Of a stretch of 64,000 bases of DNA, positions 10,549 through 63,437 are shown piece after piece. The stretch is taken from assembly GCF_964355755.1 (NCBI RefSeq), contig NC_092671.1:39070304-39134303 (forward strand), given 5' to 3'. Within the stretch, counting starts at the first letter, position 1. Each line of letters begins with the position of its first letter. The notes under the pieces are model-generated. The model searched no databases. It worked only from the letters and a program-made list of their open reading frames with translations, and was not told the DNA's origin. A program made the position numbers and the translations under genes. This stretch comes from Antedon mediterranea (lineage: Eukaryota > Animalia > Echinodermata).

Positions 10549-11823
10549 TGCAGTTTTTTTCAAATACAAAATCCAATAAAATTAAGCGAAAAAGTTCAAG
10601 AAGTTTTCTCTCCTCTCTTCCCTTGCGAACAAAAACGGAGATTGTTTGCAGTAGTTTTAACCATCGACACGCATGATCACACCCACTGTATGTACCCACG
10701 CGGCGGTGTGAGAATTACTCCTCCTACCACATACGTCATCAACAAATTCGATTCAAGCGCGCTGATTGGTCATTGAATCTATCTAAAAGAAATCATAAAG
10801 TAAATTTTAATAAATTTTGATCACTTTCCAAATAACAAATACAGTAATTGTTTCATGAATCAAGTTTATTTGCCACGTTTCTCAATTCTCAATTTTGGTC
10901 AAAGTGAATAACTAATAAGTGAATGTCAATTCAACCAATAATTGGTTACAAATTATTGTTTTCAGGGGCAATGGAATATCTTTAAATACAATCACTCAAA
11001 CAGATGCATTTCAGAGAAATCTGTCATGGAAAAATTTGGGAAATTTTGTATATTACTGGTCAAAACAAAACTAATAAAACTTCATTTGGGATTGACACAT
11101 TTTCTTCAATTACGGGTACATCACTTGTTTGAGAACTTTTCTAGAGCATCTTGATTTTTGACAAATTATTAATACTGAACAGCAACAAACAGAACAAAAG
11201 TAAAATAATAGTACACTGAAAAATCATAATAAAATGTTTTTGTAATTTAATTGGTAGGTTTTTATTATTATTTTTATCATTCTTATTAAAATCTTAGTTA
11301 AAGTTACTTTTATACACTGGTAAATAAATATTTGATTTATAAATAAATATTATATATATACCGTATATATTTGAGACAAATTAAATAAATAAAAATAATA
11401 AATTAATCACTAAAAAATATATTTCTCATTTTATTTATTCTCATTTATTAATTATTCTACCACCAATGTTATTATTTAATAATCCACATTATTCACCTGA
11501 TTCTCCGTGCTATAAACATTTGACAATATTTGCACAGAATCACAAACAAATTCCTACAACATGGTGCCTGTATCATGTAAGGTTAGGTTAAGGGTTAAGT
11601 TATGGTGTACATGTTACTAGGGGATACATGTGAAACACATGTGACCCTGTATCATGGTATTTTCGTATGATACTGGACAAATTTAGATGCATTACTGAAT
11701 ATTAGGAGGAGTAATTAATATAACATTTTTTAAAATAGACAGCTGGTTGAGGCTATAAATATGTATTTAAAATAATTTAATACCATTCTGGTCCTATATA
11801 TAGGAAATCATTTTATTTTAAAT

Positions 11824-17800: not shown

Positions 17801-19731
17801 AGAAAAAAGGGCAGCGTGGAAAGGAACTGGCCACCCTACCACATAATGCCGAGGCTTAGTACAATGAGCTCCTAACAGCTCTTTACCTTTATTATTAAAA
17901 TATCGTTGAAATTATACTTGAACATAATTTTATCTGAAGATTGACAGTAAACAGGTAAAAGTAGTGGAATAATCATTTGTACACATCTTTTAATAATTTG
18001 TGGTTTTCATATACATACCTTTTCCTTCCATAGAATCTTGTCCTTTACCCAAGGCACTAATCATAACCACACCGTTAGCAAGACAATGCGATGTGTGAGG
18101 TAACGCTAAGCCAGTTGTTTTTACTTCTTCCGATTCTACTACCTTGAGTTAAGAATGTTCAAAGCTTAGTAATAAAGTATAATACAACTACACAAACTTA
18201 TTTCTTTATGAAAAAAAAATCTAAAGCTGTGTCTACACTACCAAACTTTATGTGACAAAGAATGTGATGTGCCCATATATGGACATGTCATATCACTCAT
18301 ATTTGAGAATATCTCTAACATATTTGGGCACATCAAAACTAGTTTAATAGTGTAGAAAGAGCTTTAGATTATACAACATAGTAACATTTATATTATAACT
18401 GGACGTCTGATGCCTTATTTTTAAGAATTTAAGAGTGTTTTTAATGTTTATAAACCACTTACCTTATGCATGATAGGTTTTCGAGGATTTGTAGAGACGT
18501 CAACGACATATATTCTTGAAGAGTGGAGACAAGGCATGATCAGCTTTGAACGTTTTTTACTTGCATCGTTCCAGCAACTACTGCAGGCGTTCCAACCAGT
18601 GTGGTGGAGTTCATCATTTAAGTAAGGCATTGGCAGACGGCTAATTACCTACAATATTTTATATTAAAGTCATGCTCATTATTTTAACAGTAGAAATTTG
18701 GTGATGGCCGAGCGGTTAAGACAGTGGAACCGTAATTACGTAGTCATAAGATTGGCAAGGGTTCAAGGCTCGTTCGCTCGATGGTTCTGATGGTAGAACG
18801 AGTCTTCTCGGATAAGGACTATAAACCATAGGTCCACTGTACACATCTAGCTAATGTTTACTTTAAAGAATCTAGTACATCTTTCGAGACGAGTAGGGGT
18901 TTACCCGGTGTACTATTACATCACAGCCACTGATCATAACTGGGCCCTCTGGGTCAATTCAATTCAACCATGTTAAACTATACTCAAATGAGATTCTGCA
19001 CAGTATACAAAGATGATGATGAAATAAGAAAACAAATTAAAAGAATGTTGGTATTGGAAAATAATCTATAATCAGTTTAGCTTACTTTTTAGTTGGGGAT
19101 GGCTGTGTAGCCTGTTGATTACCTTACTAGATTCTTATTGAGAACACACAAAAAGTGAGATTCAAATCTGTGATTGATTGCTTTTAATGTCCGTAGAAAT
19201 GAATTCAATTTATTAAAAATTGAACTATTTCAAAATTAAGCTGAATGTGCTTACCTTGCAATATGTAGATGATCTTGGATCAATATCCACCGTGGCCAAA
19301 TAATCAGGTCTACCTATTTCAGTGTTTCTGTAAATGCAGGGGATATACAGCAACTCTTCCCTGGGGCCTTTCATGGCATCCAGGGGTGTTCGGTATCCAG
19401 GTCCTGGGCAGCAAGCTGCAACAGAATTGTTTTCACATTAAAAGAATTGAATGTTATGTATAGTACTTCATATCAAATACACAAATTCACATTTTTTTGT
19501 AACATAATGTTTGATAGTGTAGACAGAGCTTAAGACATCTATGCCTGTCTAAGAGGTCTATACCTTACTTTGAAGACTAGGCCTAATGGAAAAATTGAGC
19601 ACAAATTTACCGGACCTTAGATAAAAAAGTTATCTGCTACAACAAAATCTAATTCATCCAGCACATGGACATAAAATGTGCACATTATTTTGATTCCTGT
19701 TATTATAGAGAAAAAGAAGTTACTTACACAT
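11824..19731 (-). CDS. SELENBP1: Selenium-binding protein 1 / methanethiol oxidase, copy B (complete, 10 coding exons)
   Basis: Exons 19728-19731, 19255-19415, 18463-18648, 18019-18142, 15556-15738, 15260-15441, 14693-14771, 13775-13896, 12552-12763 and 11824-12007 splice in frame. Includes [54 protein letters not shown] and [18 protein letters not shown]. Confidence 0.96.
12090..12432. repeat. ~38-39-bp minisatellite, ~9 copies
   Basis: Unit caacttccagttaaccagttaacatggtttgaatgtgtcttgt in the last intron of SELENBP1-B. Confidence 0.95.
12843..13680. mobile_element. Non-autonomous DNA transposon, ~35-bp TIRs, TA target duplication
   Basis: ta|ccagagccatatatataaagagttacgacattgaa ... ttcaatgtcgtaactctttatatatatggctctgg|ta. 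Confidence 0.9.
14007..14185. mobile_element. Small PIF/Harbinger-type MITE, TTA target duplication
   Basis: tta|agcttggttaccactag..aacgcaacgcaag ... cttgcgttgcgtt..cagtgggaaccacgct|tta. Confidence 0.75.
15810..15952. repeat. 18-bp minisatellite, ~8 copies
   Basis: Unit acagtatgtgacactgtg/t. Confidence 0.95.
16300..16650 (+). mobile_element. LINE 3'-end fragment with terminal hairpin and A-tail
   Basis: RT C-terminal-like peptide ([29 protein letters not shown]), hairpin tcaacctgttagtggcggtttcatcgctgttggttga, then poly(A). An inverted sister copy lies at ~28590-28850. Confidence 0.7.
16658..17330. repeat. ~340-bp tandem duplication (2 copies)
   Basis: gacgtttaaa..gaggtgccgaaagtagctgtg... 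at ~16661 and ~17000, with matching downstream sequence. Confidence 0.9.
17680..17885 (+). mobile_element. tRNA-derived SINE
   Basis: Box A tagccgagtgg, box B gtgttcaattccc, body ccactcagctgtaaatgagtacc. Confidence 0.7.
18223..18363. mobile_element. PIF/Harbinger-type MITE copy
   Basis: agctgtgtctacacta ... tagtgtagaaagagct. Confidence 0.8.
18700..18953 (+). mobile_element. tRNA-derived SINE with Deu/Nin-like central domain
   Basis: Box A tggccgagcgg and box B ggttcaaggc. The body cggataaggactataaacc..aaagaa..tctttcgagacgagtaggggt..ccggtgt resembles, from memory, the DeuSINE domain. Other copies at ~35705-35880 (+), ~41770-41915 (-), ~48695-48750 (+) and ~50890-51165 (-). Confidence 0.75.
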
Positions 19732-33800: not shown

Positions 33801-36800
33801 CAAACAGCATGAAATGTTGTATAAAATGTTCATAAACATATTAAATATGTATATGCAAGTCATCAAATATAAATTTGCCTTTATATTCCTAGACTTTTAG
33901 TGTTTTATTAATTTTTTTATTTATTCAATTTCTACAAAGAAAAAGACAAAACAAAATATAAGACATATATTCAAATTTTAACTATTTCAATGATTTTAAA
34001 TTTGTTTTATTAAGAATTTTAATGTATTTTAATTCTAATTGTATAACTCTTTTTAATTTCCATTTTGGTTAGCCACTTGATAGTGGTTCATTTCGCTTCT
34101 GGGTTAACCAGTCTTTTGGATTTGGAACTTGTTTTTTCCTTTTTTGGTTCTGTTCTGTATTTGTCCCATGGCAGATAGGAAGTTATGGAGAAATCTAGTC
34201 ATATAAGTTTAGGTATATCCCTGACTAAGTAAATATATATTTGTTCTATTCTGACAAAATAAATGAGACATGAGACGCTTTCTGCGAATAAATCAGAATC
34301 CATTTAATGATGTCTGTATCTTAAATAAAACAAAGACTTAACAGCAAGATGGTGGAATCAAATCAAATGTTTGATAAGAAAGAACTTAGCCTACAGCAAA
34401 GAGCCAATGGGGTGACACAATGTACTTCTGTTGTTGTCTTGCTATTTTTAGTTCCTTACTGCTGTCTTTTGCTTTCCCCTAAAATAAAAACATTAGAGTC
34501 ACTTCAAAAACAATAATTAAATGAACAAATTAAAATTATAAAATTAACAAATAAACTAATTGAAGTTAACATATTCACACTTCTGTGTTCCGCCATTGAC
34601 CTATGCTGGTTTCCTCTTCAGCTCTTTTCCAAATGTTAATTTAAAAAAAAAAATAAATATTCCATAACAATTTTGAAGAAGCTACTTATTTTTGTATTTA
34701 CAAAACTACTGATTGTACGACTTTATACCATGAAATGAAGTGGTCTAATGTTTAGGACATCTGCATATCTGGGTTCGAATCTCGGCTGAGGCGACTTTTT
34801 TTCATTCTCACAGATTTCCTCATTTTATCGTTTCAAATTAATTAATTAAATTTCAGTATGTCACTGGGTGGTTTAGAATTAATGTTCTGTGCCTAATGTG
34901 TTTATATTGCACAATTAGAAAAAAAATATTTTAAATAAGTTTAACATTTTGAACCAATTTTATCCCTTTCCACGATATATTATGTTTTATTTATGTTTAC
35001 AATAACTCCTGTAAATATTAAAACTTATCTTTTGGTAAATAAAAGAAAGTGGGTAAATGTTTGTCAAGTGGTGCGAGGATGCAACAAATGAATATGTGAG
35101 TGAACAGTAAAAAAATGGAAAAAAACCCAAAAAACATGGAATGAATCATTTGTCAAAGGAATAGACAATAAGATTTCATATACAAGGCACTATATACCTG
35201 ATATATAAAATGCGTGCATCCATCATCGTACGTCCATCTAAAATCAGCTCCAAGTTCTGTAGCTATCCGGTTGTACTCTGTAAACTTTTTACTCAATTTC
35301 ATGCTCACACAGATGATGACACCTTTTAACACGCCATCATCATTCTGTGAACTCGAACACTAATAAGAACACAAATAAGATAGTTTAACAAGAAAATGTA
35401 TTTTACCGCCATTTTTCATTTCAAAATTTTAATTAATATCGTAGCTAAAATTTTAAATGAGAAAATATATGGTTAATACTGAATTCTGGCATCTTACTAT
35501 GTAAATATACCTGTATTTTAACTACTTTAAACACTTACTTTTAATTGTCAAAAATGTACTTATATGTATATAATATATTCATCAATGAGAATTTAAATAA
35601 ACGTGAGAAGAACTCACACAAGACAAAAAAATCATCATTCTGTGACTGTAACATTATGGTTATGGGTTAAAATAAACACAAAAATCAGTAGTAGAATAGA
35701 ATAGAAGTCTTCTCTGATAAGGACTATAAACCGTAGGTCCTATGTACACATCTAGCTCATGTGCACTTTAAAGAACCTAGTACATCTTTCAAGACGAGTA
35801 GGGGGTTACCTTGGTGTACTAGTACATCACAGCCACTGATCATAATTGGGATCTCTGGGAGACCAGTCTTTGATTAAAGAGGTCACTAAAGAGGTCACCC
35901 AGTACATAAATAAATAATAAACAAACTCAAATAAAAAAATATAGATTACCTCTTCAAATACATCATCTGAACGTTGGTCGATGACAGAGTTTTTCAGGGC
36001 AATTTGCAACTGCCCCTTCAAAAAATCATCTATGGACTAAAACAAAGATTAATATATTAACATCTGTCTAAACAAAAATAGTTTTCTACATCAGACTGTA
36101 CTCCTGTTAATATATAAACTTTAATTATCTGTATCCGTAACGTACACCATCTCTGGTTATCGTGTACTACGCGAGTACGTTGGTTAGGGACAACAACAAA
36201 AAATTAATTTTTTTCATAAATGTGCAATTTTAAATTATTATTATAATAAGAAAGTTTTTTAGCCATTTTTTATTAGATGTTTGTGTTGTTGTAGTGCTTA
36301 TCTGTGTTGAAGCAATTTTTCCGTGATTTTTTTTTGTTTAATTTATATATATATATGATATGCCAGTTTTCAAAACAAATTTCTGTCAATTTTTAAATGG
36401 ACAAATAAAGATATCATGACTATGAGTAGTATTTAAATTTGTTTTCTTCAAATAATTTTCATTTGTAACTAATTAACAACAACATACAAACTTACCATAT
36501 TGCTTTTCCTTGATTTTTTTCTTTCATTTGGAGGGGTTTTCAAGAAGTTCTTAAGTTCCTCACTTATGATAAACTTAGGGCGATATCCAGGAGCAAGGAA
36601 GACAGAAGGACTCTCTCTATTTGGAGAAGATGTACTAGCAGTCCTTTGGAGCTCAGAATGCCTTCGGTTCACTGCCTTTGGTGTCTTTAGATCATCACTT
36701 TCAGTTGTAGTGGATTTGTTAGGAAGTCTTTCACATGTTTCTATTGGCTCATCTGACTTTTCAAAACGTTCTTTAGTCACATTTTCTTCGTGAAAGTCTG

Positions 36801-39800
36801 TGACGTTATTTAAATTTTGTATCACCACCTCATCATCATCATCCTCTTTCTCCTCTTCTGTAACCATCTCTTCTTCAATATCCTGATTCTCTTTTTCCAC
36901 TTCTGCCATTTCTTGAACGTGCTGATTTTCATTTTCCTCTACGTCTTCTGCCATTTCTAGAACTTCCTCCTTTTCATTTTCCGCTACATCTTCTGCCATT
37001 TCTAGAACTTCCTCCTTTTCATTTTCCACTACATCTTCTGCCATTTCTTGAACTTGCCAATTTTTTTTTTCCACTACGTCTTCTGACAATTCCTGCTTCT
37101 TTTCTTCTACGTGTATCATTTCTTCTTTTTCTTCAACATCCACATTCTGTTCTACAACCTCCTTCATCCTAACCTCCATTTCTTGCAGATTCTGTTGAGG
37201 TGTAACCCTTTTACCATCAGGTTGATTAATGCCATTTGTTGACTGTACTGTACCAGTGCATTCTTGATTATCAATTAAATAATTATCTTCATCTGCATGT
37301 CGACATTGCTGAGCACACTCAAGAATCCACCTGTAACAATTATGCAGTGAAAACATAATTTATGTAAATATGATAGGCCACCTGTATTACATACATATCT
37401 TTTTCTCTACTATATGACTGCCTAATTGTCTATCGCAATCATTTTCACTTATCAGTAATATTAAATAATAAAAAATAAATATTCTTACCCAATACCAACT
37501 GCAGGAATTTTCCATTTCTTTGCGGCGTCATACTTCGTTCCTTCAGGATCTTTTAGTAACAGATGAGTGTTAGCTTTTACGTTATTCTTAGCCTTACGGC
37601 TTAAGTACTCTTGGCAGGTGGCTCCCAACAAAGTAGCTATATGTAACAAGCAGTCTCGCTCAACACCAATGTACTGACTGATAAAAGGAAAAACTAATTC
37701 AGTATTGATATTCCAAACATCACGCAACATAAACATGGTAGTAAAATAAATTATGTCATCAAAAAAGATGAAAAAACTAATTCAGTATTGTCATTCAAAC
37801 AATGCTTGACTCTATATTCAATATTACCATTGACACAGTAGTAAAATAAATTATGTCCTCAATAAAAAACTGAGCAAAATTCTTGGAAAAATACAGAGTG
37901 ACAGAGAGCGTGCCATTTAATATTTTGGCCCATAAATGAAGATACAGCTAACTTTAGATTTTATTTTATAAAATTGTTAAAAAACATTTAAAGCAAGTAA
38001 TTTAATTTATCAAAAAGTAATAATAAAATAGAAAATTTGTATGTTACATAAAGGGGAAAAGTGGTAGTTTACACTCTGTAAAACCAGTAGATGAGGGCAC
38101 GTGGCGCAGTTTGGTTCAAATCCAACTCTCGCCGCATTGCTTAGGCAAGACAATTTACTTACATTTGCCTCTCTTCACCCAGGTGTATAAAATAGGTATC
38201 GCTTAGATTAAGACACAACTTTGCTCTGATTACTTGCTGCATTATGGGAGTATGCTTCCATACGCGTTTGATCAAAAAAATGACCGGGGTAATAATGTGC
38301 AGCGCATTGAGAGCTTGCTTATACAGAATGCGCTATATAAGAATGAACTAATACATATATAGAATATATATAGAATTGAGTACCTGACAGTTAAAACACA
38401 ATCTTTCAAAGGTTTTTTATTGAGGTCAAGCAGAATTGGTAGATAGAGCGGATGACTTGAAACCTGATAAACCTCTTGAAACTCCATACATTTCTGCAAC
38501 CAGCAATTGGTGGCCACATTGCAAATGTTAGAAACGGCCTTAGTAACTACATTCGGCACTATCTGGTAATCAGCTTTAGAATTATCACTTGTCGATATCA
38601 CAATGCCTAAAATAATAAAATATGATGATATATTTTACACAATGTCCAGGGGTGATTTTGATTGTTTTACTCGATAATTACCTTTAAAAGGATTTTTTAT
38701 TTATTTTTTATTTATTTCAATTAGCGATCAGGGGGATCCCGTCATTTACAGACTGGAATACATAAAAAAACAAGACAAAAAAAACATCAACAAGGTCCAC
38801 AAGAACCAATTACAAACAATTCTTAATTTTGGATTTAAATAAATGTTATTAATATATTAATACAGCTGCACAGTAGAACCCCTTTCGGACATTGTCGCAA
38901 TAAAAGGAACACTATATGCCCAAATATGGTAGTGATGTGCCCAAATATGGTAGTGATGTGCCCAAATATGGTAGTGATGTGCCCAAATATGGTAGTGATG
39001 TGCCCAAATATGGTAGTGATGTGCCCAAATATGGTAGTGATGTGCCCAAATATGGTAGTGATGTGCCCAAATATGGTAGTGATGTGCCCAAATATGGTAG
39101 TGATGTGCCCAAATATGGTAGTGATGTGCCCAAATATGGTAGTGATGTGCCCAAATATGGTAGTGATGTGCCCAAATATGGTAGTGATGTGCCCAAATAT
39201 GGTAGTGATGTGCCCAAATATGGTAGTGATGTGCCCAAATATGGTAGTGATATGCCCAAATATGGTAGTGATATGCCCAAATATGGTAGTGATATGCCCA
39301 AATATGGTAGTGATATGCCCAAATATGGTAGTGATATGCCCAAATATGGTAGTGATATGCCCAAATATGGTAGTGATATGCCCAAATATGGTAGTGATAT
39401 GCCCAAATATGGTAGTGATATGCCCAAATATGGTAGTGATATGCCCAAATATGGTAGTGATATGCCCAAATATGGTAGTGATATGCCCAAATATGGTAGT
39501 GATATGCCCAAATATGGTAGTGATATGCCCAAATATGGTAGTGATATGCCCAAATATGGTAGTGATATGACATCATCATGTCCATATATGGGCACATAAC
39601 ATTTTGTTGTCACATAAAGTTTGATAGTGTGGACAGAGCTTAATAGCTAATTTGAAATCAAATTTAATGTAAACACCTCCTTCTGCATTTATCATGTTGG
39701 TAATCTCTTCTTCTTCATCTTCAAGAAATTCAAGAATTGTAAATTTCTTTCCTGTGAAGATTCCATTTTCTAACTCTTCATCTGGAACATCTACTTCTAA

Positions 39801-52164: not shown

Positions 52165-52788
52165 TGTGATATAAAGATATACTTTTATATTTAAGAAATT
52201 GACCTTTGTATCGGAATTTAAATAGGTTCACAAACTTGACCCAGAAAGTCCAAAGGAGAGTTTGTCCAGATGTTTTAATGACCATTTAGTTTATAATAGA
52301 ATCCCTAAAGAAAACACTTAGCTTAATTTTGTGACTTTCCCATCGTTAAACCAGGAGTGATCGACACTATTTAAGTACAGATTTGACAGTGTCATCCATC
52401 ACAGAAATACCTTATTATACCGTTAATCACTCCCACTTAAACACCCCTGGATCAACTTAGGACCAATCGTTACCCTCTAATATTACGTAGTGACATTATG
52501 CAAATGAACTGAGCCAATATACTCCCAAGTTTCAGAAGGGCCCAGACACACCTTACAGCCACCTCACGGAGCACACACCTTACAGCCACCTCACGGAGCA
52601 CACACCTCACAGCAGACCTACACACTTCACACCTCACCGACAGCATCATTGAATGTCCGTTCCTTATCTATACTTATAGTTGTATATTGTACTGAAGTAT
52701 TATACTGAATAAATAATATATGTGTTACGACAGTCAAGCGAGTCAGAGTCTTTCATTAGTACCTCAACAACCGCAACAATATATTACA
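52165..52788 (+). repeat. 5' LTR (624 bp)
   Basis: Direct repeat of 61398-62020. Contains CCAAT boxes, an octamer ATGCAAAT (52498-52505), 27-bp tandem repeats (~52546-52613) and AATAAA (52708-52713). Confidence 0.98.
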
Positions 52789-52808
52789 TGGTGGAAGACC
52801 CAAATTTC
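52789..52808 (+). promoter_or_regulatory. Primer-binding site (atypical; cognate tRNA not identified)
   Basis: tggtggaagacccaaatttc immediately after the LTR CA. TGG complements tRNA CCA and TGGTGGA fits tRNA-Ala 3' ends, but I cannot extend the match. Confidence 0.7.
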
Positions 52809-52921
52809 ATAAGGAACGGAGTGAGAAAACAAGAAATAAACACTTAACAAGACACGAAGACGAAGACAAAGACAAAAATAACCACATTTGTTTGAAAGGA
52901 GAGAAATTTACTTTGACTCAA

Positions 52922-53128
52922 AAGACAAGCTGAAATTATATTTGAATGAGATCGAGACAAGCAGAAATTTTATTAAATTATTACCATTGGATGAAGACAA
53001 AGAAGATAATCGAGGAAGACACAAAAGACAAGCTGAAATTATATATTTGAATGAAATCGAGACAAGCAGAAATTTTATGAAATTATAACCATTGGATAAA
53101 GACAAAGAAGATAATCGAGGAAGACCCA
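52922..53128 (+). repeat. ~103-bp tandem duplication in the retrotransposon leader
   Basis: aagacaagctgaaattat...gataatcgaggaagac, twice. Confidence 0.9.
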
Positions 53129-53458
53129 AGAAGAATCAAAACAGAAGCAAGCGGACAAGAACTGTTTCGTTTAGAGACTTTCAACTTCACGCCGTTTTTT
53201 TTTCGATCGTTTTTTTAACATTTACTTTTTTGAACATTGATGAACACCTTTCGCATTTTTTTTTGAATTCGTTGTTTGAACATTTAAACATTTTTGAACA
53301 CTTTTGCATTCCTTTAATTCATTTTTAATTGGATCCGAAGCATTTGGGGTAAGTCAAAGCCATTTTGATTTTTGATTTGTAACCTTGATTGAAAAGTGAG
53401 AGTTTACATATACACTAAATTGTTTTTGATATTTGATTAATAATTAATATTATAAAGT

Positions 53459-54430
53459 ATGGTCGACATTGTTGATAACGAAGTAATTTTAAATGAGCCC
53501 GTCAATCCTCACCCCGTGCCCCACCTAAGACAAACCGATTTCCTTCCCAAAAGATATGACGGTTCCATAACCGATCACGACCAATGTAGTGCACACTACT
53601 TATCGTTTACCGACTACCTTGAGGCCCACACGTTAGAAAACCCTGTAAACAATGCCCAATTAATTAATGTAATAAGTATTTTTAAACGTAGCCTTCAGGG
53701 CCAAGCTAGACTCTGGATTGAGGGAAAGCAGTTCGATTCACTAGAATCCTTAAAAACCCAATTCATCAACAGGTTTAGTAAAAACAAATCAATCTATGCG
53801 CACATAAGAGAATACGATTCAATTACATACACCACTGGCGACAACGCCGAAAAGCATTTAACCAAAATCAAACAAGCCGCAGACAGAATTGGATACGCTG
53901 ACCAGCAGATAAAGAATAAATTTATTTCGACCCTTCCACCAAAATGTAGAGCAGCTGTAGCCATGTCCACCCCAATCGATGCCACTATTGAAAATATTGT
54001 AAATAGCACACAAAATTACCTTGACCTTTCCGTAGATGATGCCACACGGGAAGTTTCATTCAATATCAATAAGGAAACAGATAGGCCTAGGCCTAATAGT
54101 CTCGAATCGCTCCAACATGAGATAAATTCTCTCAAGTTAGACATGGCCACAACAAAACGATCCCTTAATGATGATACTCGACGCTCACGTTCCCCCACCC
54201 GAAATTATATCCCAAGACGAAACCGAAGCCCAAGCCCATACAAACCCCAATTCCAGACCCCACCGACCCCAAGATATAGACAACCTCCCCCAACCTGTTA
54301 TTACTGCGGGAAACCAGGCCACATAGCAAGGCACTGCCGACAACAAAACCGCTCTTACGGAAACTATCCCCCGCCATACCCATACCAACAGTCAAACAAT
54401 TACTACCCTAGCCACCAGCAGGATTTTTAA
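53459..54430 (+). CDS. gag: Gag polyprotein
   Basis: 323 aa. Capsid-like FKRSLQGQARLW..LKTQFINRF and zinc knuckle CYYCGKPGHIARHC. Confidence 0.95.
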   Translation: MVDIVDNEVILNEPVNPHPVPHLRQTDFLPKRYDGSITDHDQCSAHYLSFTDYLEAHTLENPVNNAQLINVISIFKRSLQGQARLWIEGKQFDSLESLKTQFINRFSKNKSIYAHIREYDSITYTTGDNAEKHLTKIKQAADRIGYADQQIKNKFISTLPPKCRAAVAMSTPIDATIENIVNSTQNYLDLSVDDATREVSFNINKETDRPRPNSLESLQHEINSLKLDMATTKRSLNDDTRRSRSPTRNYIPRRNRSPSPYKPQFQTPPTPRYRQPPPTCYYCGKPGHIARHCRQQNRSYGNYPPPYPYQQSNNYYPSHQQDF

Positions 54431-54464
54431 AAAGGGGACTAGATGCCGCCTATAATCTGGCCCC
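54421..54464 (+). promoter_or_regulatory. -1 programmed ribosomal frameshift signal
   Basis: G_GAT_TTT heptamer directly before the gag stop. The pol frame is -1 and open from 54412. A 6-nt spacer precedes the stem gggg-a-ctagat / atctgg-cccc. Confidence 0.8.
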
Positions 54465-57400
54465 CCATACTAAATACGACAATTTTAAGGCAAAATACTT
54501 AGGGAATTCAGATAATATTGATTTGTTACTTAACGACAGAAATTACGTTAAAGGAAATTTACCAGATGGTAGAAATGTTTTAACTTTATTTGACAGTGGT
54601 TCAACTAGAACTATAATCTCACAATCGTACGTTAATTCCTCACTTTATTTATCGCGTTTAAAGCCAGTTAAAGTGAACACAACTAAATTTCGATTAGGTA
54701 ACGGTGACTTCTTATATGCCAACCACTTAGTGCAATTCGAATTATTTATCCAAGGACACAAATTTAAAATTTCAGCATTAATCGTTAAAAATTTGACAGG
54801 TATTGACCTGATACTTGGAACCGAAACATTGTCTGAACTCGACGGTACTTTAAATTTTAAGGAAAACACATTTCGCATTAGACCAAAGATTTTTAGCTTT
54901 CGTCCAGTACACAAGATTTTTCTTAAACCCAATGATACTAAAACAGTTAAATTAAAAGGAAGGGTTCCCGCCTTTGTACGCAATTCTGATGTTGTTCTAC
55001 ATGCAACCACCCCTATTTCAAAACTTTGTCCATCAGATATGTTAGTAAAATTACATAGAGGAGAAACCAACATTGATATCACTAACAACACAAACAGAAA
55101 CGTATCTCTAAATACACATCAACCTATCGCGAGCCTTCACTTAACCAACCTTGTAACAGTTACTAACGACCTACCAATTGATAGAATAAAGTTGACCAAT
55201 GACAACGCAAACAAGTACCCACATTTAGAACGTACAGACCCATTGCTATCTTTAACCGAGGAAGAAATAATTAGAAAACAAGTTGATTTAACAGACAGCG
55301 TTTTAACACATAGAGAAAAAGAAGATTTGTATAAAACCTTACAACAAAACAGAAACGCATTTTCACTTTATGGTGAACTATCTAGCTGCCCAAACTTCAA
55401 AGCTGACATACACCTCTCTAACGATGAACCATTTTTTATTCGACCATACTTCGCGACAGACAAAGACAAACATGTTATTGAGGCCGAATTAAACAAATTA
55501 GTCAAATTAGGAATCTTAGCAGCAGGACACCAATCGTATACTTCCCCTGTCCTTCTTGTTTCAAAGAAAAATTCAAAAGATAAAAGAGTTGTCACAGACT
55601 TTCGCTATCTAAATTCCAGGATAAAACGTATTAATCACCCATTCCCATTATTAGCCGAAACTCTGAAAACAATAGGTAACGCTAATGCACAGATTCTTAG
55701 CGTAATTGATTTGAAATCAGCGTTCCACTGTGTACCATTAGCCGAACATGCCCAACAATACACAGGTATAGCTTCATATCATGGTGGAAAACATTATTAT
55801 TATAAGAGATTAGCACAAGGATTAAACGTTTCACCAGGTATATTTCAAGCAAAGATTGACGAAATTTTAAATGAAATCCCAAATTCTAGAGAATTCTGTA
55901 TCGCCCATCATGATGATATTATTTTATTTAGCCAAGACAAATTTGCTCATAAGCAGCACCTTGTTTCCGTTTTACAAGCCCTACAATTAAATGGTTTTAG
56001 AATTTGTCCAAAGAAATGTAAGTTATTCAAGAATAAAGTGCAATATATGGGACACACCATCCTGATTAATTCTTCAGGACACGCATGTATCACACCATTA
56101 GGCGACAGGTGTGCAGCTATCCGAAATTTGCCAGTCCCACGAACCCATAAAGAAACTAAACGATTTATTGGTGCAGTAAATTATGTATCCCATTTTTTCC
56201 CTCAAATACAATCAATTTTACGTCCGTTACACACACTCGCAAGCAAACGCCGAAAATTTGTTTGGTCTACTGACCACCAGAAAGCATTTGACGAAATTAA
56301 ACAATTAATGGTTAAACCACCAACTCTTCAAATGCCTAGAAAAGAAGGTAGATTTACGCTATATAGCGACACTTCAAGAACCGCGACAGGTTCATATTTA
56401 ACACAAACAGTAAACGGTAAAGAACACATAATAGGTTATTATTCCAAAATCTTACCACAAGCCTGTCAACGATATAGCGTCACAGAATTAGAGTTATTTG
56501 GACTTTACATTAACGTTTCAGCATTTCGACACTTACTAAAGGGTTGCGAATTTGATGCATTCGTAGACCACTCAGCAATTGTACAAATTTGGAATTCAAA
56601 AGATCAGCCATGTACACCCCGTTTACAGAAACTAATATTACGATTGTCCGGATACATTTTCCAAATTGGTTATAAGAAAGGAACTGAATTAGTTTTAGCA
56701 GATTTTCTCTCCCGAGCCCCTCGTGATGATGATTCCGAAATTGATCAAGTTGTACCCATTGCATTTAATATTACAGAGACTGAATCTCTTAACCCGATTA
56801 CAAACACATCTACTAGCAGACCAGTAACAAGGTCATACGCCAAGCAAATGGGAATAAATATACCTGACCTACATAAACCCAAACCAGTACAAACGCCCGT
56901 CATTAATCAAAACCCAGTGACAACAAACACGCGACCTACACCTCAACCTACCGCTACACCACAGATAATCACGAGACAACAAACAAACGCACATCGATCA
57001 CCGCCTATCATAACGCCACCTATCGTAACGCCACCCCCAATACGTAATAAAAACATTCGACAACCTCCAGAGGAACGACTAGTAGACAAAAATAAGCTAA
57101 GCAAAGATACTACACATCGAAACGTACCAGTTGAATTATATACATCGCCCAAACCACTAGTACCAAACATAACTGAATTTAAGTCAGCACACATCCCAAA
57201 ACAACAAGACTTAGATAGATTAATGGATGTTATTCAAAGAAAGATAATTAGAGATTATAACCTCCCAGTAGACGTTAAACAATTACGTGTTGAACAAGAA
57301 ACTTCACCATTTTTTAAGCCAGTTTACGATTATTTAGCTCATGATATCCTTCCAGCTGATAAGAAAGCAGCTCGTGCAGTTCAGAATAAGTCAGAGCAGT

Positions 57401-59136
57401 ACATATTGTGCAACGGTTTACTATTCCGTTTATTTTTCCAAGATAAAGGTGGAGAATTTGTATTGCAATTAGCTGTTCCTGAAAACTTAGCAGAGACTGT
57501 TATTTCTCAGTATCACGACAATTTGTTAAGTAGCCACCAAGGTACGATGCGTACTTACCTTACTATTAGGAAATTATTTTACATGCCTCTTATGTTCGAG
57601 AAAGTAAACAATTATACCCAAGCGTGTCTTAGATGTCAACAATTTCGTCCCAAAACCGATAAATTACGTCCTTTACACGATCGAGTACCAGCAACTTACC
57701 GTCCCTTTCATACACTCAGTCTAGATTTTAAGAGTATGCCAACATCACCTTCAGGTTTTAAACATATAATGGTAGTATGTGATGAGATAACTAGATTTTT
57801 GATTTGTGTACCTTTGAAATCCATTGATGCCGAAACAATTTGTGAAGCACTAATTCAAAAGGTCATCAGTATTTTTGGACCCCCATCTCGTCTTATTTCA
57901 GATGCAGCAACCTCCCTTACAGGAAAATTATTAACACTATTATGTAACACCCTTAATATTGATAGGAAAATCATCAGCGTCCACAATCACGGTAGTTTAC
58001 AAGTTGAACGTCATATCCGCACCGTATCGGACCTGTTAAAGGTCAACCTTAACCAATTCGGAACAGATTGGGTTAGATTTGTATCAACAACATGTTATGC
58101 TTATAATTCTTTCTCATCCCCACATCTAGGAAACCACTCCCCTTACGAATTAGTTTTTGGCCGCCAACCTCCAAGTTTGACCTCATTAGCATTTAACCCT
58201 ATTTCAGGATTGTCTCATTCCTATGAAGAATACTTTGAACATCTCAAGAAGAAATTTCAAAACATTTCACAGACAATGCTACAATTACAGCGAACACAAC
58301 AAAACGTCCAAAACTCAAAGATTTCCCAACGATTAGAAAAAAGTCCAATTTACTCAGTAGGACAACTCGTATATTTATACAAGCCAACATCATCATCACT
58401 AACAGCAAATTCAAAGAAAATCGCCGCAGAATGGGTCGGACCATTAGTAATTCATGAAGTACTAGACAGAACACACTACATCCTAGCGACGATTAAAGGA
58501 GAAATACTTCGCGACGTATTCAATTATAACAGACTGAAACCCTGTTTTATGAGATCGCCTAAAGAACGCAAAAATTTTACACATCTACAAAAACTTAAAC
58601 AATTGTTGAATGAACCAACCGATGATAATAACGAGAAAATCCAAAACACCATTAATGTAGTAAATGACGAAAGCAATGTTGAATTTGTAGACGAACATGA
58701 TAGGACACCAGCCCAATTGCAATCAGATACCCTTACACATCCAACTAAGATAGAACCCCTTAACTTGCAACCTTACATTGACTGTGTAGAGAATAACATG
58801 GGATTAGCAGCCCCATTCCAAATGAAAGAAGAACAAATTAAGGAACAAACTAATTTAATTATGACAGCACCTAATGATTCAAGTATGACATTAAACCGAG
58901 GTAGATTTAAAGCAGGACATTTCCAAGTTTTAGTTTCATATTCTAAACCGACTTCAGCCAAACGCAACACCGATAAAACAAAACAAGAATCTAATGATCG
59001 CAAATTTTGGTGGAATATTGACAGATATAACGATACAGATAAATTAATTAAAGAGATCATTAATGATAAACAGATACTGATAAGTGGATCGCCAAAACGA
59101 TTCATAAAACGTTTGTATAATGCAACAAGTTACTGA
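54421..59136 (+). CDS. pol: Pol polyprotein (protease, RT, RNase H, integrase), expressed as gag-pol fusion
   Basis: Protease LFDSGS; RT IDLKSAFH, RLAQGL, AHHDDII; RNase H YSDTS, YSVTELE, VDHSA, ADFLSR; integrase HHCC (YHD..SHQG..CLRC), D-D-E (SLDF, ISDAA, QVER) and WVGP. No internal stops. Confidence 0.97.
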   Translation, partial: GFLKRGLDAAYNLAPHTKYDNFKAKYLGNSDNIDLLLNDRNYVKGNLPDGRNVLTLFDSGSTRTIISQSYVNSSLYLSRLKPVKVNTTKFRLGNGDFLYANHLVQFELFIQGHKFKISALIVKNLTGIDLILGTETLSELDGTLNFKENTFRIRPKIFSFRPVHKIFLKPNDTKTVKLKGRVPAFVRNSDVVLHATTPISKLCPSDMLVKLHRGETNIDITNNTNRNVSLNTHQPIASLHLTNLVTVTNDLPIDRIKLTNDNANKYPHLERTDPLLSLTEEEIIRKQVDLTDSVLTHREKEDLYKTLQQNRNAFSLYGELSSCPNFKADIHLSNDEPFFIRPYFATDKDKHVIEAELNKLVKLGILAAGHQSYTSPVLLVSKKNSKDKRVVTDFRYLNSRIKRINHPFPLLAETLKTIGNANAQILSVIDLKSAFHCVPLAEHAQQYTGIASYHGGKHYYYKRLAQGLNVSPGIFQAKIDEILNEIPNSREFCIAHHDDIILFSQDKFAHKQHLVSVLQALQLNGFRICPKKCKLFKNKVQYMGHTILINSSGHACITPLGDRCAAIRNLPVPRTHKETKRFIGAVNYVSHFFPQIQSILRPLHTLASKRRKFVWSTDHQKAFDEIKQLMVKPPTLQMPRKEGRFTLYSDTSRTATGSYLTQTVNGKEHIIGYYSKILPQACQRYSVTELELFGLYINVSAFRHLLKGCEFDAFVDHSAIVQIWNSKDQPCTPRLQKLILRLSGYIFQIGYKKGTELVLADFLSRAPRDDDSEIDQVVPIAFNITETESLNPITNTSTSRPVTRSYAKQMGINIPDLHKPKPVQTPVINQNPVTTNTRPTPQPTATPQIITRQQTNAHRSPPIITPPIVTPPPIRNKNIRQPPEERLVDKNKLSKDTTHRNVPVELYTSPKPLVPNITEFKSAHIPKQQDLDRLMDVIQRKIIRDYNLPVDVKQLRVEQETSPFFKPVYDYLAHDILPADKKAARAVQNKSEQYILCNGLLFRLFFQDKGGEFVLQLAVPENLAETVISQYHDNLLSSHQGTMRTYLTIRKLFYMPLMFEKVNNYTQACLRCQQFRPKTDKLRPLHDRVPATYRPFHTLSLDFKSMPTSPSGFKHIMVVCDEITRFLICVPLKSIDAETICEALIQKVISIFGPPSRLISDAATSLTGKLLTLLCNTLNIDRKIISVHNHGSLQVERHIRTVSDLLKVNLNQFGTDWVRFVSTTCYAYNSFSSPHLGNHSPYELVFGRQPPSLTSLAFNPISGLSHSYEEYFEHLKKKFQNISQTMLQLQRTQQNVQNSKISQRLEKSPIYSVGQLVYLYKPTSSSLTANSKKIAAEWVGPLVIHEVLDRTHYILATIKGEILRDVFNYNRLKPCFMRSPKERKNFTHLQKLKQLLNEPTDDNNEKIQNTINVVNDESNVEFVDEHDRTPAQLQSDTLTHPTKIEPLNLQPYIDCVENNMGLAAPFQMKEEQIKEQTNLIMTAPNDSSMTLNRGRFKAGHFQVLVSYSKPTSAKRNTDKTKQESNDRKFWWNIDRYNDTDKLIKEIINDKQILISGSPKRFIKRLYNATSY

Positions 59137-59814
59137 TTTAATTTTTTGCAAAATTATTTTTAAATTACGACATTTGCTAAATCATTGATAGCATAGTCTA
59201 CGTATTTGATGAGATTTGTTTAGTAATGATGTGATTTCAGTTAAAAGAGAATTGAATTTATGTTTAAGTATTGATTTTGTAACGAGTTTGATAATGATTA
59301 ATTTTGAATTTTGATGATCGATATATTGAGATATTGAAAAGAACGACAATCATTTTGTAACAAATATTTTGTTTAACCTTTGAGTCGTTAATCTCAAGCA
59401 TTAATTAATTGATATACAATAACAGGAGATTTTCTTAGTACTTTTAATTGTAATTTTTTTAACATTGAGTACAAAAGTCGAATTTGCCGACCGATTGAAA
59501 TCGTAATTACCTGTAAATATAAATGCTTAAATCGATAAAGTTGTGACGATAACGATATATTGTGGATAAGTTTGTGTCAACGGGACAAACACATTTGTTT
59601 CTTTTAAAGTTTTAAGTGATTAAGTTTGATATTTGATTTTAGGCTAATCAGCCACAGTTTCTTGAATTTTACGTTTTGATTTGATTGATTTATATTTGAA
59701 GGCCATTAGAACGCGATAAGTTGTCGCGCTATTTGATATATATTCATTGTACATATTCTCTAAGTTCTTTAAATTTGACCAATTGACGTTTGATTAACGC
59801 TCGAGGGAGGAGTA

Positions 59815-59895
59815 GAGCCAATTACGAGCTATATATATAAACAACCGGATGGGCAGACTATAAATAAGTCGCACGAGCGTATCAAATATACAGTA
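59815..59895 (+). promoter_or_regulatory. Candidate internal Pol II promoter for ORF3
   Basis: CCAAT at 59818, TATATAAA at 59834, TATAAA at 59859 and CAGT at 59891 (~30 nt after TATA). Confidence 0.5.
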
Positions 59896-60065
59896 TTTAC
59901 TGTCGAATTATAAGTTAATTTACTTTTGTGAGATTGTTATAATAGTTGAACTTAAAATTTTATTGTTTGAGTTTTATATTGTTTATTTAGTTTAATATTG
60001 TTTCTTTTAAATACATTTTAATTTTATTTATCGTAATTTTAGTCAATTCCAAATTTCCCCCTAAA

Positions 60066-60941
60066 ATGGAATCCGAAAAGCTTGACGTTACACAGTTATG
60101 CTTAAAACACAAAATTCAAATGACGCCCCTGTCCACAGAATGTGCCCTTATAAAGAAGATAATCCTTTACCAAAGCGAACAAAACGTAATTCTCCATATT
60201 ACCAAAACGATGCCATTTACTTTAGATTCCTTGAAAAGAGTTTTATTATTCCTTTGCGACATCCGTCCAGCAGACCAACTGACAAACCTCAAATTAAATA
60301 CCCTTTTACACATTGGCAGTTATTTATGTTGTTTCGACAAAATGTCCTCCCCCATTATAGACAACATTTGGAAGCATAAGAGTGAACCAGCCCTACTTGA
60401 CTTTTCCACAATCGACCTTTCCATTAATCTAGACGGCATCGCCACTTGTATACCAAACACACATGAATTTCACAGACAACATATTTATTCTATGACCCTC
60501 CTGCTCTTAGCAATTACAAAAGACATCAAAGCCCCACAATGCACAACATTTTTTTCAAGAGTCCGACAACAAACAGGCATCATACCCCAAGACGAATTAA
60601 AACCTAGCGAACACTCACCATTTGGATATGTTGTAACTAAATATAAGAAAAAACTATATTCGCACATTCGTAACATGCAGTACCTGGAAAATAAATACCA
60701 AGATACCCCCTGCCAAATTTGTCAATGTAACCCCGAAATTAAAAACTTTCATACTGACTGTACAATCAACAAATGCTGCGGAACATTGTTTCACAAAAAT
60801 TGCCAACAAATAAACAAGAAATACCAATGCTTGAATTGCGGTATGGTATATTTGAATGAGATGCCTTACACTGCTACCTACATGTTGGACGACGGCACAC
60901 TGTGGACTACATCCCATTATTATCGATTATTATATGATTGA
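60066..60941 (+). CDS. Retrotransposon ORF3, 291 aa, unknown function, C-terminal C4HC3 RING/PHD-like zinc finger
   Basis: Uninterrupted ORF with a good start context (aaaATGG) and the same A/C-rich composition as gag/pol. Pattern C-x2-C-x17-CC-x4-H-x2-C-x8-C-x2-C. No signal peptide or C-terminal membrane anchor evident. Confidence 0.8.
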   Translation: MESEKLDVTQLCLKHKIQMTPLSTECALIKKIILYQSEQNVILHITKTMPFTLDSLKRVLLFLCDIRPADQLTNLKLNTLLHIGSYLCCFDKMSSPIIDNIWKHKSEPALLDFSTIDLSINLDGIATCIPNTHEFHRQHIYSMTLLLLAITKDIKAPQCTTFFSRVRQQTGIIPQDELKPSEHSPFGYVVTKYKKKLYSHIRNMQYLENKYQDTPCQICQCNPEIKNFHTDCTINKCCGTLFHKNCQQINKKYQCLNCGMVYLNEMPYTATYMLDDGTLWTTSHYYRLLYD

Positions 60942-61369
60942 TTTCAATTTATCCTTTATAAATTTTTTTTCTATTTCAAATAATTAACGAGAGTCGACTT
61001 CTTGACCGATGTTTTTTAGGGAAACCCAACCGTTGTGATGTTTATATTTCGGTAATCCGAGTGTAGCATGCATCCAAAGCAACGGACCCACAATTATGTC
61101 GATCTTGAAGAACACTTTTGTTTTTTTATATACATTTTTTGTTTCAAATTTTATATAAATTCCGGAATTTTTATACCAAATTCATTTTTAATTTCATTTT
61201 TTTAAGAGAGAGAAGAGAGAGAGAGAGTGAAAGTGATAAGGTTACACTTCAGAGTCAATGGTTTTGGCTAACTCAATTTTTGCTTATATGTATAATAATG
61301 TTTTTTTCTTTTATATAACTTTAATTTTGCATGCCACTATTATAACCATTTTTATATGTTAAATAGATT

Positions 61370-61397
61370 AGAAAAAAAAAAAAGGGAAATAGAGGGA
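61370..61397 (+). promoter_or_regulatory. Polypurine tract
   Basis: agaaaaaaaaaaaagggaaatagaggga immediately before the 3' LTR. Confidence 0.9.
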
Positions 61398-62020
61398 TGT
61401 GATATAAAGATATACTTTTATATTTAAGAAATTGACCTTTGTATCGGAATTTAAATAGGTTCACAAACTTGACCCAGAAAGTCCAAAGGAGAGTTTGTCC
61501 AGATGTTTTAATGACCATTTAGTTTATAATAGAATCCCTAAAGAAAACACTTAGCTTAATTTTGTGACTTTCCCATCGTTAAACCAGGAGTGATCGACAC
61601 TATTTAAGTACAGATTTGACAGTGTCATCCATCACAGAAATACCTTATTATACCGTTAATCACTCCCACTTAAACACCCCTGGATCAACTTAGGACCAAT
61701 CGTTACCCTCTAATATTACGTAGTGACATTATGCAAATGAACTGAGCCAATATACTCCCAAGTTTCAGAAGGGCCCAGACACACCTTACAGCCACCTCAC
61801 GGAGCACACACCTTACAGCCACCTCACGGAGCACACACCTCACAGCAGACCTACACACTTCACACCTCACCGACAGCATCATTGAATGTCCGTTCCTTAT
61901 CTATACTTATAGTTGTATATTGTACTGAAGTATTATACTGAATAAATAATATATGTGTTACGACAGTCAAGCGAGTCAGAGTCCTTCTTTAGTACCTCAA
62001 CAACCCAACATTATATTACA
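61398..62020 (+). repeat. 3' LTR (623 bp)
   Basis: Identical by eye to the 5' LTR except for four differences in the final ~40 nt. Confidence 0.98.
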
Positions 62021-62567: not shown

Positions 62568-62929
62568 GCGTTTTAAACACTAAAACAGATTTTAATGTAA
62601 AACAAGTTAGAATATGAATTGTTTTATCGATCTAATTTAAGTTTCACAGTGCAGTAGAATGATAATGTCAATTAAAAATGTTATTTTCGGTTCTCAACAT
62701 TCTTATTCGGCTTTTGTCGGCGGCGGCCGGCACTACTCGTTACTTTTTTTGCGTGTTTAAAACGCTAAAACAGAATTTAATGTAAAAAAAAGTTAGCCTA
62801 TGAACTGTTTAAATTGCTTTATCAATCTAATTTAAGTTTAAAGTAGAATGATAATGTCAATTAAAAGTGTTATTCGGGTCTCAACATTCTTATTCGGCTT
62901 TTGTCGGCGGCGGCACTACTTTTCTTGCG
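62568..62929. repeat. ~185-bp tandem duplication covering the lectin stop codon and 3' UTR
   Basis: ctaaaacaga..agtagaatgataatgtcaattaaaa..tctcaacattcttattcggcttttgtcggcggcggc occurs twice. Confidence 0.85.
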
Positions 62930-63437
62930 GCAACTCGCACACGTAGTAAATCTGTTGTTCGCATCCCCAGTCATTCCAGGTTCCGCTGTCTGGATCACCA
63001 CTGCTTTGATGCGCACAGTCCTCGCCGCCGGAATTATCAGGTTGACCTGTTTTCCAATTGGTATATGTCGCAACATCGCCGGAATCCTTCCACGTCCAAT
63101 TGCCCTCAACGTCACTATCCGTAAGACCAAGCCAGAAAGTGACGTCATAGATTGCAACCATATTACCAGTAGTCGACTTCCAAAGTTCGTATACGAATAA
63201 GTCTTCGGCTTCACTTCGGATGGAGACGAGATGACCAACGTCATGATGATTGAAAAATTCGTGGCAAGCGTGTTCGGCCTCATGATAGGTTTTTTTGGTT
63301 CCGAAGGCACGATAACAACTTTCTTGAAATGGAACCCAATGTGGTAGGCATGGTGGGTGGCATGCCGGGTGACCCGACTCTGCCGAAACAGCTTCAATTG
63401 CGGCTAAAGCAGCGATAACACTCAAAATCAATTTCAT
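62916..63437 (-). CDS. Secreted C-type lectin (echinoidin-like), galactose-type QPD/WND motifs
   Basis: Signal peptide MKLILSVIAALAAIEAVSA, long-form CTLD cysteines, HLVSI, FWLGL, QPDN, EDC and WND. Single coding exon, with a splice acceptor (tttag) 4 nt upstream of the ATG. Confidence 0.95.
   Translation of the reverse strand: MKLILSVIAALAAIEAVSAESGHPACHPPCLPHWVPFQESCYRAFGTKKTYHEAEHACHEFFNHHDVGHLVSIRSEAEDLFVYELWKSTTGNMVAIYDVTFWLGLTDSDVEGNWTWKDSGDVATYTNWKTGQPDNSGGEDCAHQSSGDPDSGTWNDWGCEQQIYYVCELPQEK

What the first reader, a model, noticed from the sequence alone, without database searches (positions are those of the whole stretch)
60066..60941. Young Gypsy element carries a non-env third gene with a RING/PHD-like finger
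Seen: an intact 291-aa ORF in the env position between pol and the PPT of an element with near-identical LTRs. It shows no signal peptide, furin site or membrane anchor, and ends in C-x2-C-x17-CC-x4-H-x2-C-x8-C-x2-C (60711-60839). Known: C4HC3 spacing is shared by PHD fingers and RING-variant E3 ligases, and third ORFs of Ty3/Gypsy elements are usually env-like. Inference: an accessory gene, possibly an E3 ligase or chromatin reader that counters host silencing or guides integration. I do not recognise the N-terminal ~200 aa, so this may define an undescribed accessory-gene family.
Basis: partly seen in the sequence, partly recalled or inferred. Interest (0 to 1): 0.85.

Follow-up and report, generated by a model that had tools for sequence, protein, structure and literature searches.

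The report
Orphan zinc-finger cargo of Gypsy element
A recently inserted, intact jumping gene of a marine invertebrate carries, where retroviruses keep their envelope gene, an extra gene for a soluble zinc-finger protein with no detectable relatives, which likely acts as an optional helper for the element's own expression, though its role is untested.

Summary
An intact 291-codon ORF (60066-60941) sits between pol and the PPT of a complete Ty3/Gypsy element with 99.4% identical LTRs. It has no membrane, signal or furin features and carries a C4HC3-type Cys/His cluster. It is an orphan: 0 hits in 1.84 billion representatives; single-sequence folds were uninformative (pLDDT 43-46).

The finger fits neither proposed label cleanly. 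It fails three RING grammars and lacks the linchpin residue; it has the PHD-type aromatic but too short a last loop. Its only recurring Pfam match is a sub-threshold, near-collinear hit to the C-terminal third of the Rubicon-homology domain (best E 1.5e-4 after trimming).

Public contigs hold ORF3 in three coded organisms, without listed stops and with mostly in-frame indels. It is far less constrained than pol (10 of 30 versus 14 of 19 listed changes synonymous), and depth hints that only a minority of pol-bearing copies carry it.

Best reading: an optional, fast-evolving, non-catalytic adaptor in a swappable 3' cassette (0.35). Non-env third ORFs are a known kind; this protein family appears undescribed.

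The parts
52165..52788 (+). 5' LTR (TG...CA), preceded by a 4-bp target-site duplication
52789..52806 (+). primer-binding site (starts TGG); tRNA not identified
   Evidence: position seen directly
53349..53354 (+). consensus splice donor in the leader, candidate donor for a subgenomic ORF3 mRNA (inferred, untested)
53459..54430 (+). gag, 323 aa, one CCHC knuckle
   Evidence: zf-CCHC E 1.7e-5
54412..59136 (+). pol frame (1574 codons stop to stop, overlapping the gag end in another frame, so likely frameshifted): PR-RT-RNase H-IN; first ATG at 55039
   Evidence: best PDB hit Ty3 RT, E 1e-50
59700..59900 (+). CpG-richer block with TATA-like boxes (59830, 59859) and a CAGT 32 nt after the second: candidate internal promoter (inferred); approximate left edge of the variable cassette
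59991..60042 (+). T-rich, AG-free tract ending in AG 24 nt before the ORF3 ATG: candidate splice acceptor (inferred)
60066..60941 (+). ORF3, 291 aa, 33.9 kDa, pI 8.3, soluble orphan protein
60621..60710 (+). predicted helix (residues about 186-215) that adds to the Rubicon-homology profile score
   Evidence: low-confidence model
60711..60839 (+). C4HC3-type Cys/His cluster, residues 216-258, predicted two-zinc cross-brace finger
60988..61120 (+). predicted RNA stem-loop downstream of ORF3 (z -3.6 in a hand-picked window; 2nd and 3rd best of 195 windows in an unbiased scan, z -2.7 and -2.1); weak
61376..61396 (+). polypurine tract
61398..62020 (+). 3' LTR, followed by the 4-bp target-site duplication

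Best explanation
ORF3 is an intact extra gene in the env slot of a complete, recently inserted Ty3/Gypsy element, and it likely encodes an optional, soluble, non-catalytic zinc-finger adaptor that would act in trans to help the element's own transcription or RNA handling in host germ cells. Shown: element anatomy, intact orphan ORF, no membrane features, the Cys/His cluster, presence in three coded organisms, faster evolution than pol. Inferred: expression from a spliced message (donor 53349, acceptor 60042) or an internal TATA promoter (59859); two-zinc cross-brace fold; binding of a host nuclear protein or the element's RNA through the finger and preceding helix; residence in a swappable cassette (about 59700 to 61000-61250) that many sister copies replace with other sequence.
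For: Intact and non-random. Variants read from public contigs: no stop among 30 listed substitutions in organism B, none of them at a putative ligand, and 3 of 4 listed indel events in ORF3 keep frame against 2 of 14 in non-coding parts (P 0.044). Synonymous share 7 of 18 in codons 1-260, omega about 0.4. One 796-nt contig covers most of ORF3 at depth 176 in run X1 with 3 differences, against 12.5-14 for flank contigs, so a homogeneous young ORF3-bearing subfamily has amplified. PHD-type aromatic (Y253) precedes the last Cys pair and the RING linchpin is absent (features from PMC13061254 passages). Expression signals exist. Precedent by function: CERV of Cer1 is an orphan Gypsy accessory protein from a spliced mRNA whose Cys cluster is needed for genomic RNA export (PMC10309623, abstract and passages).
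Against: No partner, localisation or expression evidence. Purifying selection is not significant once transition bias is allowed (P 0.11-0.28) and is much weaker than in pol (P 0.009); both tallies use only the rows the tool listed (40 of 115, 40 of 321), so ligand conservation is not fully checked. A divergent variant in organism B has a 1-nt gap at codon 194 and stops aligning at codon 211, just before the finger. No PHD family was hit in any Pfam scan; the only recurring hit is RH_dom, a cytoplasmic Rab7-binding domain. No sequence link to CERV could be tested.
Confidence: 0.35

Rival explanations
1. Passenger: a captured coding fragment that hitch-hikes in one young subfamily and has little or no function for the element.
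For: Apparently missing from most close pol-bearing copies (single-contig depths pol 584-642 vs ORF3 176 in X1; pol 14.7-15.6 vs 2-2.9 in X10). Synonymous excess not significant. One frameshifted variant and low-depth gapped fragments exist. 7 of 9 changes in the variant 3' end are non-synonymous.
Against: Frame kept over 291 codons in variants about 4-5% diverged (21 differences, 0 gaps in 469 nt, table 8); in-frame indels; strong start context and ATG-free 216-nt leader (P 0.033, post hoc, and other spacers are ATG-poor too); no host parent gene detectable, which a recent capture should show if the host's relatives are in the library.
Confidence: 0.25
2. RING-variant E3 ubiquitin ligase that degrades a host restriction or silencing factor.
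For: C4HC3 order is shared with RING-CH ligases, and viral K3/K5 were first mistaken for PHDs (PMC4897099 passage). Hydrophobic Ile218 lies before the second Cys (feature). Language-model neighbours of residues 180-270 are mostly RING-type clusters, incl. FANCL_C and RINGv.
Against: Those scores are 0.75-0.79, below what a third of shuffled proteins reach. Fails RING-HC, RING-H2 and MARCH grammars (grammars recalled). Gly259 at the linchpin position; no Trp or other hydrophobic residue four after ligand 6 and no Pro after ligand 7 (those two features recalled). No RING family in any Pfam scan.
Confidence: 0.12
3. Captured C-terminal zinc module of a Rubicon-homology (RH) domain that binds Rab7 and acts as a decoy, shielding particles or RNA from autophagic and endolysosomal clearance.
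For: RH_dom is the only Pfam family hit in 9 of 9 overlapping finger-containing fragments (E 1.5e-4 to 0.06); the match is nearly gapless over profile positions about 129-202 of 206 and rises from 13.6 to up to 22.1 bits when the preceding helix is included. An RH cluster is among the language-model neighbours (0.75). Rubicon binds Rab7 through Zn clusters 2-4 and the end of the stalk, i.e. this part (PMC7382272, Results section part 1). Autophagy restricts L1 and Ty1 (PMC4982230 passage).
Against: Always below the gathering score (28.1); E 0.12 for the whole protein; fragments were trimmed post hoc and overlap; Cys-rich profiles over-score. The helix alone and the N-terminal 205 residues give no RH hit. 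The Cys pair that precedes the finger in RH domains (recalled) is absent after H200. Direct phmmer against PDB chains did not list Rubicon.
Confidence: 0.1
4. Histone-reading tether that binds integrase and steers insertion.
For: PHD-type aromatic present (feature); PHD fingers occur in CR1/L2 ORF1 and were proposed to target integration (PMC4120745 passages).
Against: Separate ORF, not fused to integrase; pol has its own long C-terminal extension shared with relatives; last loop shorter than canonical PHD; no Trp at the usual methyl-lysine cage position (position recalled); apparently dispensable in many copies.
Confidence: 0.08
5. Degenerate or atypical envelope protein.
For: Position only.
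Against: No hydrophobic segment, furin site or sequon; no env family hit; a metazoan survey found no env-carrying Ty3/gypsy in echinoderms (PMC13524379 passages), the group of the closest named pol relatives.
Confidence: 0.02

Closest known systems
Family-specific non-env ORF3s of bdelloid rotifer LTR retrotransposons (GDSL, DEDDy, CC, TM types; PMC5408684, abstract and passages)
   Same: Third ORF after pol that is not env, family-specific, gained and lost, modular; intragenomic variation reported as mostly neutral.
   Different: Those ORF3s have recognisable enzyme or membrane domains; the passages searched hold no zinc-finger ORF3 ('zinc' 0 hits, 'PHD' only in a reference).
CERV of C. elegans Cer1 (PMC10309623, abstract and passages)
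   Same: Orphan, fast-diverging accessory protein of a Gypsy-type element with an essential Cys cluster; spliced mRNA.
   Different: CERV is 517 aa, shares exons with gag, has a C4 loop and a G-protein-like domain; ORF3 here is a free-standing 291-aa ORF with a C4HC3-type cluster. Homology not testable (no CERV sequence held).
Rubicon-homology domain (Pfam PF13901; Rubicon, PLEKHM1, Pacer; PMC7382272 Results part 1)
   Same: Helix followed by a compact Cys/His finger with a short last loop; only recurring profile match.
   Different: Only the last third of the profile matches, below threshold; no match to the FYVE-like first zinc cluster or stalk.
PHD fingers of CR1/L2 LINE ORF1 (PMC4120745 passages)
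   Same: C4HC3 finger carried by a retroelement accessory or structural ORF.
   Different: Non-LTR elements, finger mostly N-terminal beside RRM or coiled coil; here C-terminal in an LTR element's third ORF, no PHD profile hit.
RING-CH/RINGv ligases (KSHV K3/K5, MARCH; PMC4897099 passages)
   Same: C4HC3 ligand order; viral accessory use.
   Different: N-terminal RING plus membrane helices; ORF3 has no membrane segment and fails the MARCH spacing.

Membership tests
Ty3/Gypsy LTR retrotransposon | LTR-PBS-gag-PR-RT-RH-IN-PPT-LTR with target-site duplication | tested here: met
   RT best PDB hit Ty3
Ty3/Gypsy LTR retrotransposon | assignment to a named clade | not testable with these tools
   no GyDB/Repbase references held; tree of unnamed relatives only
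env-type ORF3 | signal peptide, furin site, membrane anchor, glycosylation | tested here: not met
PHD finger | C4HC3 order of ligands | tested here: met
PHD finger | aromatic residue before the last Cys pair | tested here: met
   Y253; feature
PHD finger | canonical spacing, 12 or more residues between ligands 6 and 7 (grammar recalled) | tested here: not met
   8 residues
PHD finger | profile or fold match | tested here: inconclusive
   no Pfam PHD hit (HMMER filters drop weak hits); models pLDDT 43-46
PHD finger | histone-tail binding | not testable with these tools
   needs assay
RING / RINGv E3 ligase | RING-HC, RING-H2 or MARCH ligand spacing (grammars recalled) | tested here: not met
   a looser C-x4/5-C-x4-H form does match
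RING / RINGv E3 ligase | hydrophobic residue before second Cys | tested here: met
   I218; feature
RING / RINGv E3 ligase | Arg/Lys linchpin after ligand 8 (usual, not universal) | tested here: not met
   G259; feature
RING / RINGv E3 ligase | RING fold and E2-dependent activity | tested here: inconclusive
   fold searches on low-confidence models gave nothing; activity untestable
Rubicon-homology domain | Pfam PF13901 gathering score 28.1 | tested here: not met
   best 22.1 bits, 12.7 for whole protein
Rubicon-homology domain | four zinc clusters joined by a helical stalk | tested here: inconclusive
   profile positions 1-125 not matched, but weak matches are filtered and no reliable model exists
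Rubicon-homology domain | Rab7-GTP binding | not testable with these tools
   no Rab7 sequence available in session
CERV-like export factor | homology to CERV; requirement for genomic RNA export | not testable with these tools
   no CERV sequence held; needs experiment

The most novel reading that the evidence does not exclude
A Gypsy lineage captured the Rab7-binding zinc module of a Rubicon-family autophagy regulator and carries it as a swappable, self-contained cassette: a retrotransposon-encoded counter-defence against autophagic clearance. No paper in the library holds both 'Rubicon homology' and 'retrotransposon'.
Probability: 0.08. Interest if true: 0.85.

Novelty: new variant of a known kind. 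Interest (0 to 1): 0.42.

Why it matters
Accessory genes are where transposons fight or use their hosts, and very few in animal Gypsy elements have a known job. This one is small, soluble and appears to be present in some sister copies but not others within one genome, which gives a natural with/without comparison. If the finger is RH-derived, it would point to autophagy as a target of transposon counter-defence; if it is a nuclear adaptor, it adds a second CERV-like case outside nematodes. If neutral, it is an ordinary example of 3' cargo turnover.

Full report
Observation. The ORF is real: 60066-60941, 291 aa, with the stated motif at 60711-60839. It has no hydrophobic segment (best 19-residue mean 1.0), no furin site and no sequon. 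An ATG ORF of this length arose in 0 of 2000 shuffles of the region, and a generic C4HC3 pattern in 4 of 20000 shuffles of the protein. Its base composition matches gag and pol rather than the T-rich spacers on either side.

The element. LTRs lie at 52165-52788 and 61398-62020, 99.4% identical, with a 4-bp target-site duplication, PBS and PPT. All LTR differences fall in the last 38 nt, so the insertion is very recent. gag (CCHC knuckle) overlaps an intact 1574-codon pol frame with RT, RNase H and integrase; the best solved relative of the RT is Ty3. The closest pol relatives are 57-65% identical; named ones come from Holothuria, Diadema, Patella and Lineus. In a tree of the first 50 hits that aligned, the window groups with the Holothuria protein at weak support (0.71). 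A marine invertebrate host, probably an echinoderm, is an inference.

ORF3 is an orphan. Word-seeded searches found 0 of 238 and 0 of 2 candidates; phmmer over 1.84 billion representatives found none at E<=0.001; the Atlas gave no usable hit though it scored the sequence as protein-like (2930; 91 in 100 real proteins and 9 in 100 shuffles reach 2300). Pol relatives at about 60% identity are in the collection, some on 10-17 kb contigs, so ORF3 is either absent from those families, not called, or diverged beyond detection. Both structure predictions were low-confidence and five fold searches were uninformative.

What the finger is. The likeliest ligand set is C216, C219, C232, C237 or C238, H243, C246, C255, C258. 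It fails RING-HC, RING-H2 and MARCH grammars and the canonical PHD grammar, passing only when the last loop may be 8 residues (grammars recalled). Against features listed in PMC13061254 (passages): the hydrophobic residue before the second Cys is present, the Arg/Lys linchpin is absent (Gly259), and the PHD-type aromatic before the last pair is present (Tyr253). Language-model neighbours of residues 180-270 are small giant-virus proteins, RING-type clusters and one RH cluster, all at 0.75-0.79, which is lead-level only. Pfam returned RH_dom as the only family for 9 of 9 overlapping finger-containing fragments (E 1.5e-4 to 0.06), nearly gapless over the last third of the profile and stronger with the preceding helix. 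It never reaches the gathering score, scores E 0.12 for the whole protein, and the 6 fragments without the finger gave no RH hit. In Rubicon this is the Rab7-binding part (PMC7382272, Results part 1). I treat it as the best structural lead, not as membership.

Is it under selection? Eleven public runs hold the stretch in whole or part, from three coded organisms, an unnamed run and a metagenome. Of 115 differences the tool listed 40; the 30 inside ORF3 for organism B are 10 synonymous, 20 non-synonymous, no stop. That gives omega about 0.5 (0.4 for codons 1-260), P 0.05-0.06 without and 0.11-0.28 with transition bias. The 19 pol sites among the 40 of 321 listed are 14 synonymous to 5, so ORF3 is clearly less constrained (P 0.009). 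Of listed indel events, 3 of 4 in ORF3 keep frame (counting one cluster of four small insertions in a single contig as one 6-nt event) against 2 of 14 in non-coding parts (P 0.044). The exception, in a variant about 13% diverged, is a 1-nt gap at codon 194 with alignment ending before the finger. The evidence favours weak constraint and does not exclude near-neutrality; bdelloid ORF3s were also reported as mostly neutral within a genome (PMC5408684 passage).

Is it in most copies? Probably not. In run X1 single long contigs have depth 584-642 in pol, 176 across ORF3 and 12.5-14 in the flank; in X10 pol is 14.7-15.6 and ORF3 pieces 2-2.9; in X7 pol bins are 8400-18000, ORF3 bins 640-2240 and flank 155-240. 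Depth drops at about 59700-59730 in all three, where contigs also break (59673 in X1, 59693-59695 in X10), and rises again at about 61000 (organism B) or 61250 (organism A). No high-depth joint skips the interval, so the other copies would carry different sequence there, not a clean deletion. The tool warns that depth is not copy number and that filters drop contigs, so this is a hint. ORF3 versions under 80% identity would look the same.

Expression. A consensus donor lies in the leader (53349) and a T-rich, AG-free tract ends in AG 24 nt before the ATG; separately, TATA-like boxes and a CAGT lie in a CpG-richer block just inside the left edge of the variable interval. Either route is plausible; no RNA data were available.

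Mechanism. Shown: anatomy, intactness, orphan status, non-env character, faster evolution. Rivals: passenger 0.25, E3 ligase 0.12, RH-derived Rab7 decoy 0.10, integration tether 0.08, env 0.02; the remainder is unallocated.

Novelty. Non-env third ORFs are established (PMC5408684), PHD fingers occur in LINE ORF1 (PMC4120745 passages), and capture of host gene pieces as counter-defence is documented (PMC13534243 passages). PMC6238403 (passages) did not help assign a clade. Unchecked notes from this scan describe Cys-finger ORFs after pol in other genomes; none matched this sequence. My literature searches found no description of this protein type, but repeat databases were not searchable. Verdict: a real, apparently undescribed accessory ORF of a known kind, with unresolved function; interest 0.42.

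Noticed in passing
window pol, RT active-site motif (about 55910-55925): The RT motif reads HHDD instead of the usual YxDD (usual form recalled). By a regex, 22 of the 120 listed pol relatives also read HHDD, most others lack the Tyr too (IMDD 52, HMDD 10, IHDD 9), and 9 gave no match.
   Followed up: partly
window 52751-52779 vs 61984-62011: All four LTR differences cluster in the last 38 nt, which looks more like template switching or conversion between variants than ageing.
   Followed up: no
window about 58600-59136: Integrase has a long C-terminal extension with no Pfam match, similar in the relatives printed; a candidate targeting domain.
   Followed up: no
window 60833-60965: Organism A carries two 3'-end alleles of ORF3 at similar depth (78 and 86 in X1); the divergent one shares 7 of its 9 listed changes with organism B, suggesting mosaicism.
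   Followed up: partly
window 60990-61150: In organism B depth jumps here more than tenfold over ORF3, coinciding with the predicted stem-loop; possibly a cis element kept by copies lacking ORF3.
   Followed up: partly
window 58730-61165: A contig in run X7 joins these places at about flank depth: an internally deleted copy lacking the pol end and ORF3.
   Followed up: no
window 62916-63437 (-): Intronless secreted-type C-type lectin gene 0.9 kb from the 3' LTR (Lectin_C E 2e-19).
   Followed up: no
window 2626-3024 (-): Exon of a selenium-binding protein SBP56 gene (E 2e-22).
   Followed up: no
window 36472-37359 (-): 296-codon open frame with no Pfam match at E<0.5.
   Followed up: no
window 52915-53134: Duplicated segment of about 115 nt (92% identical) in the element's leader.
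   Followed up: no
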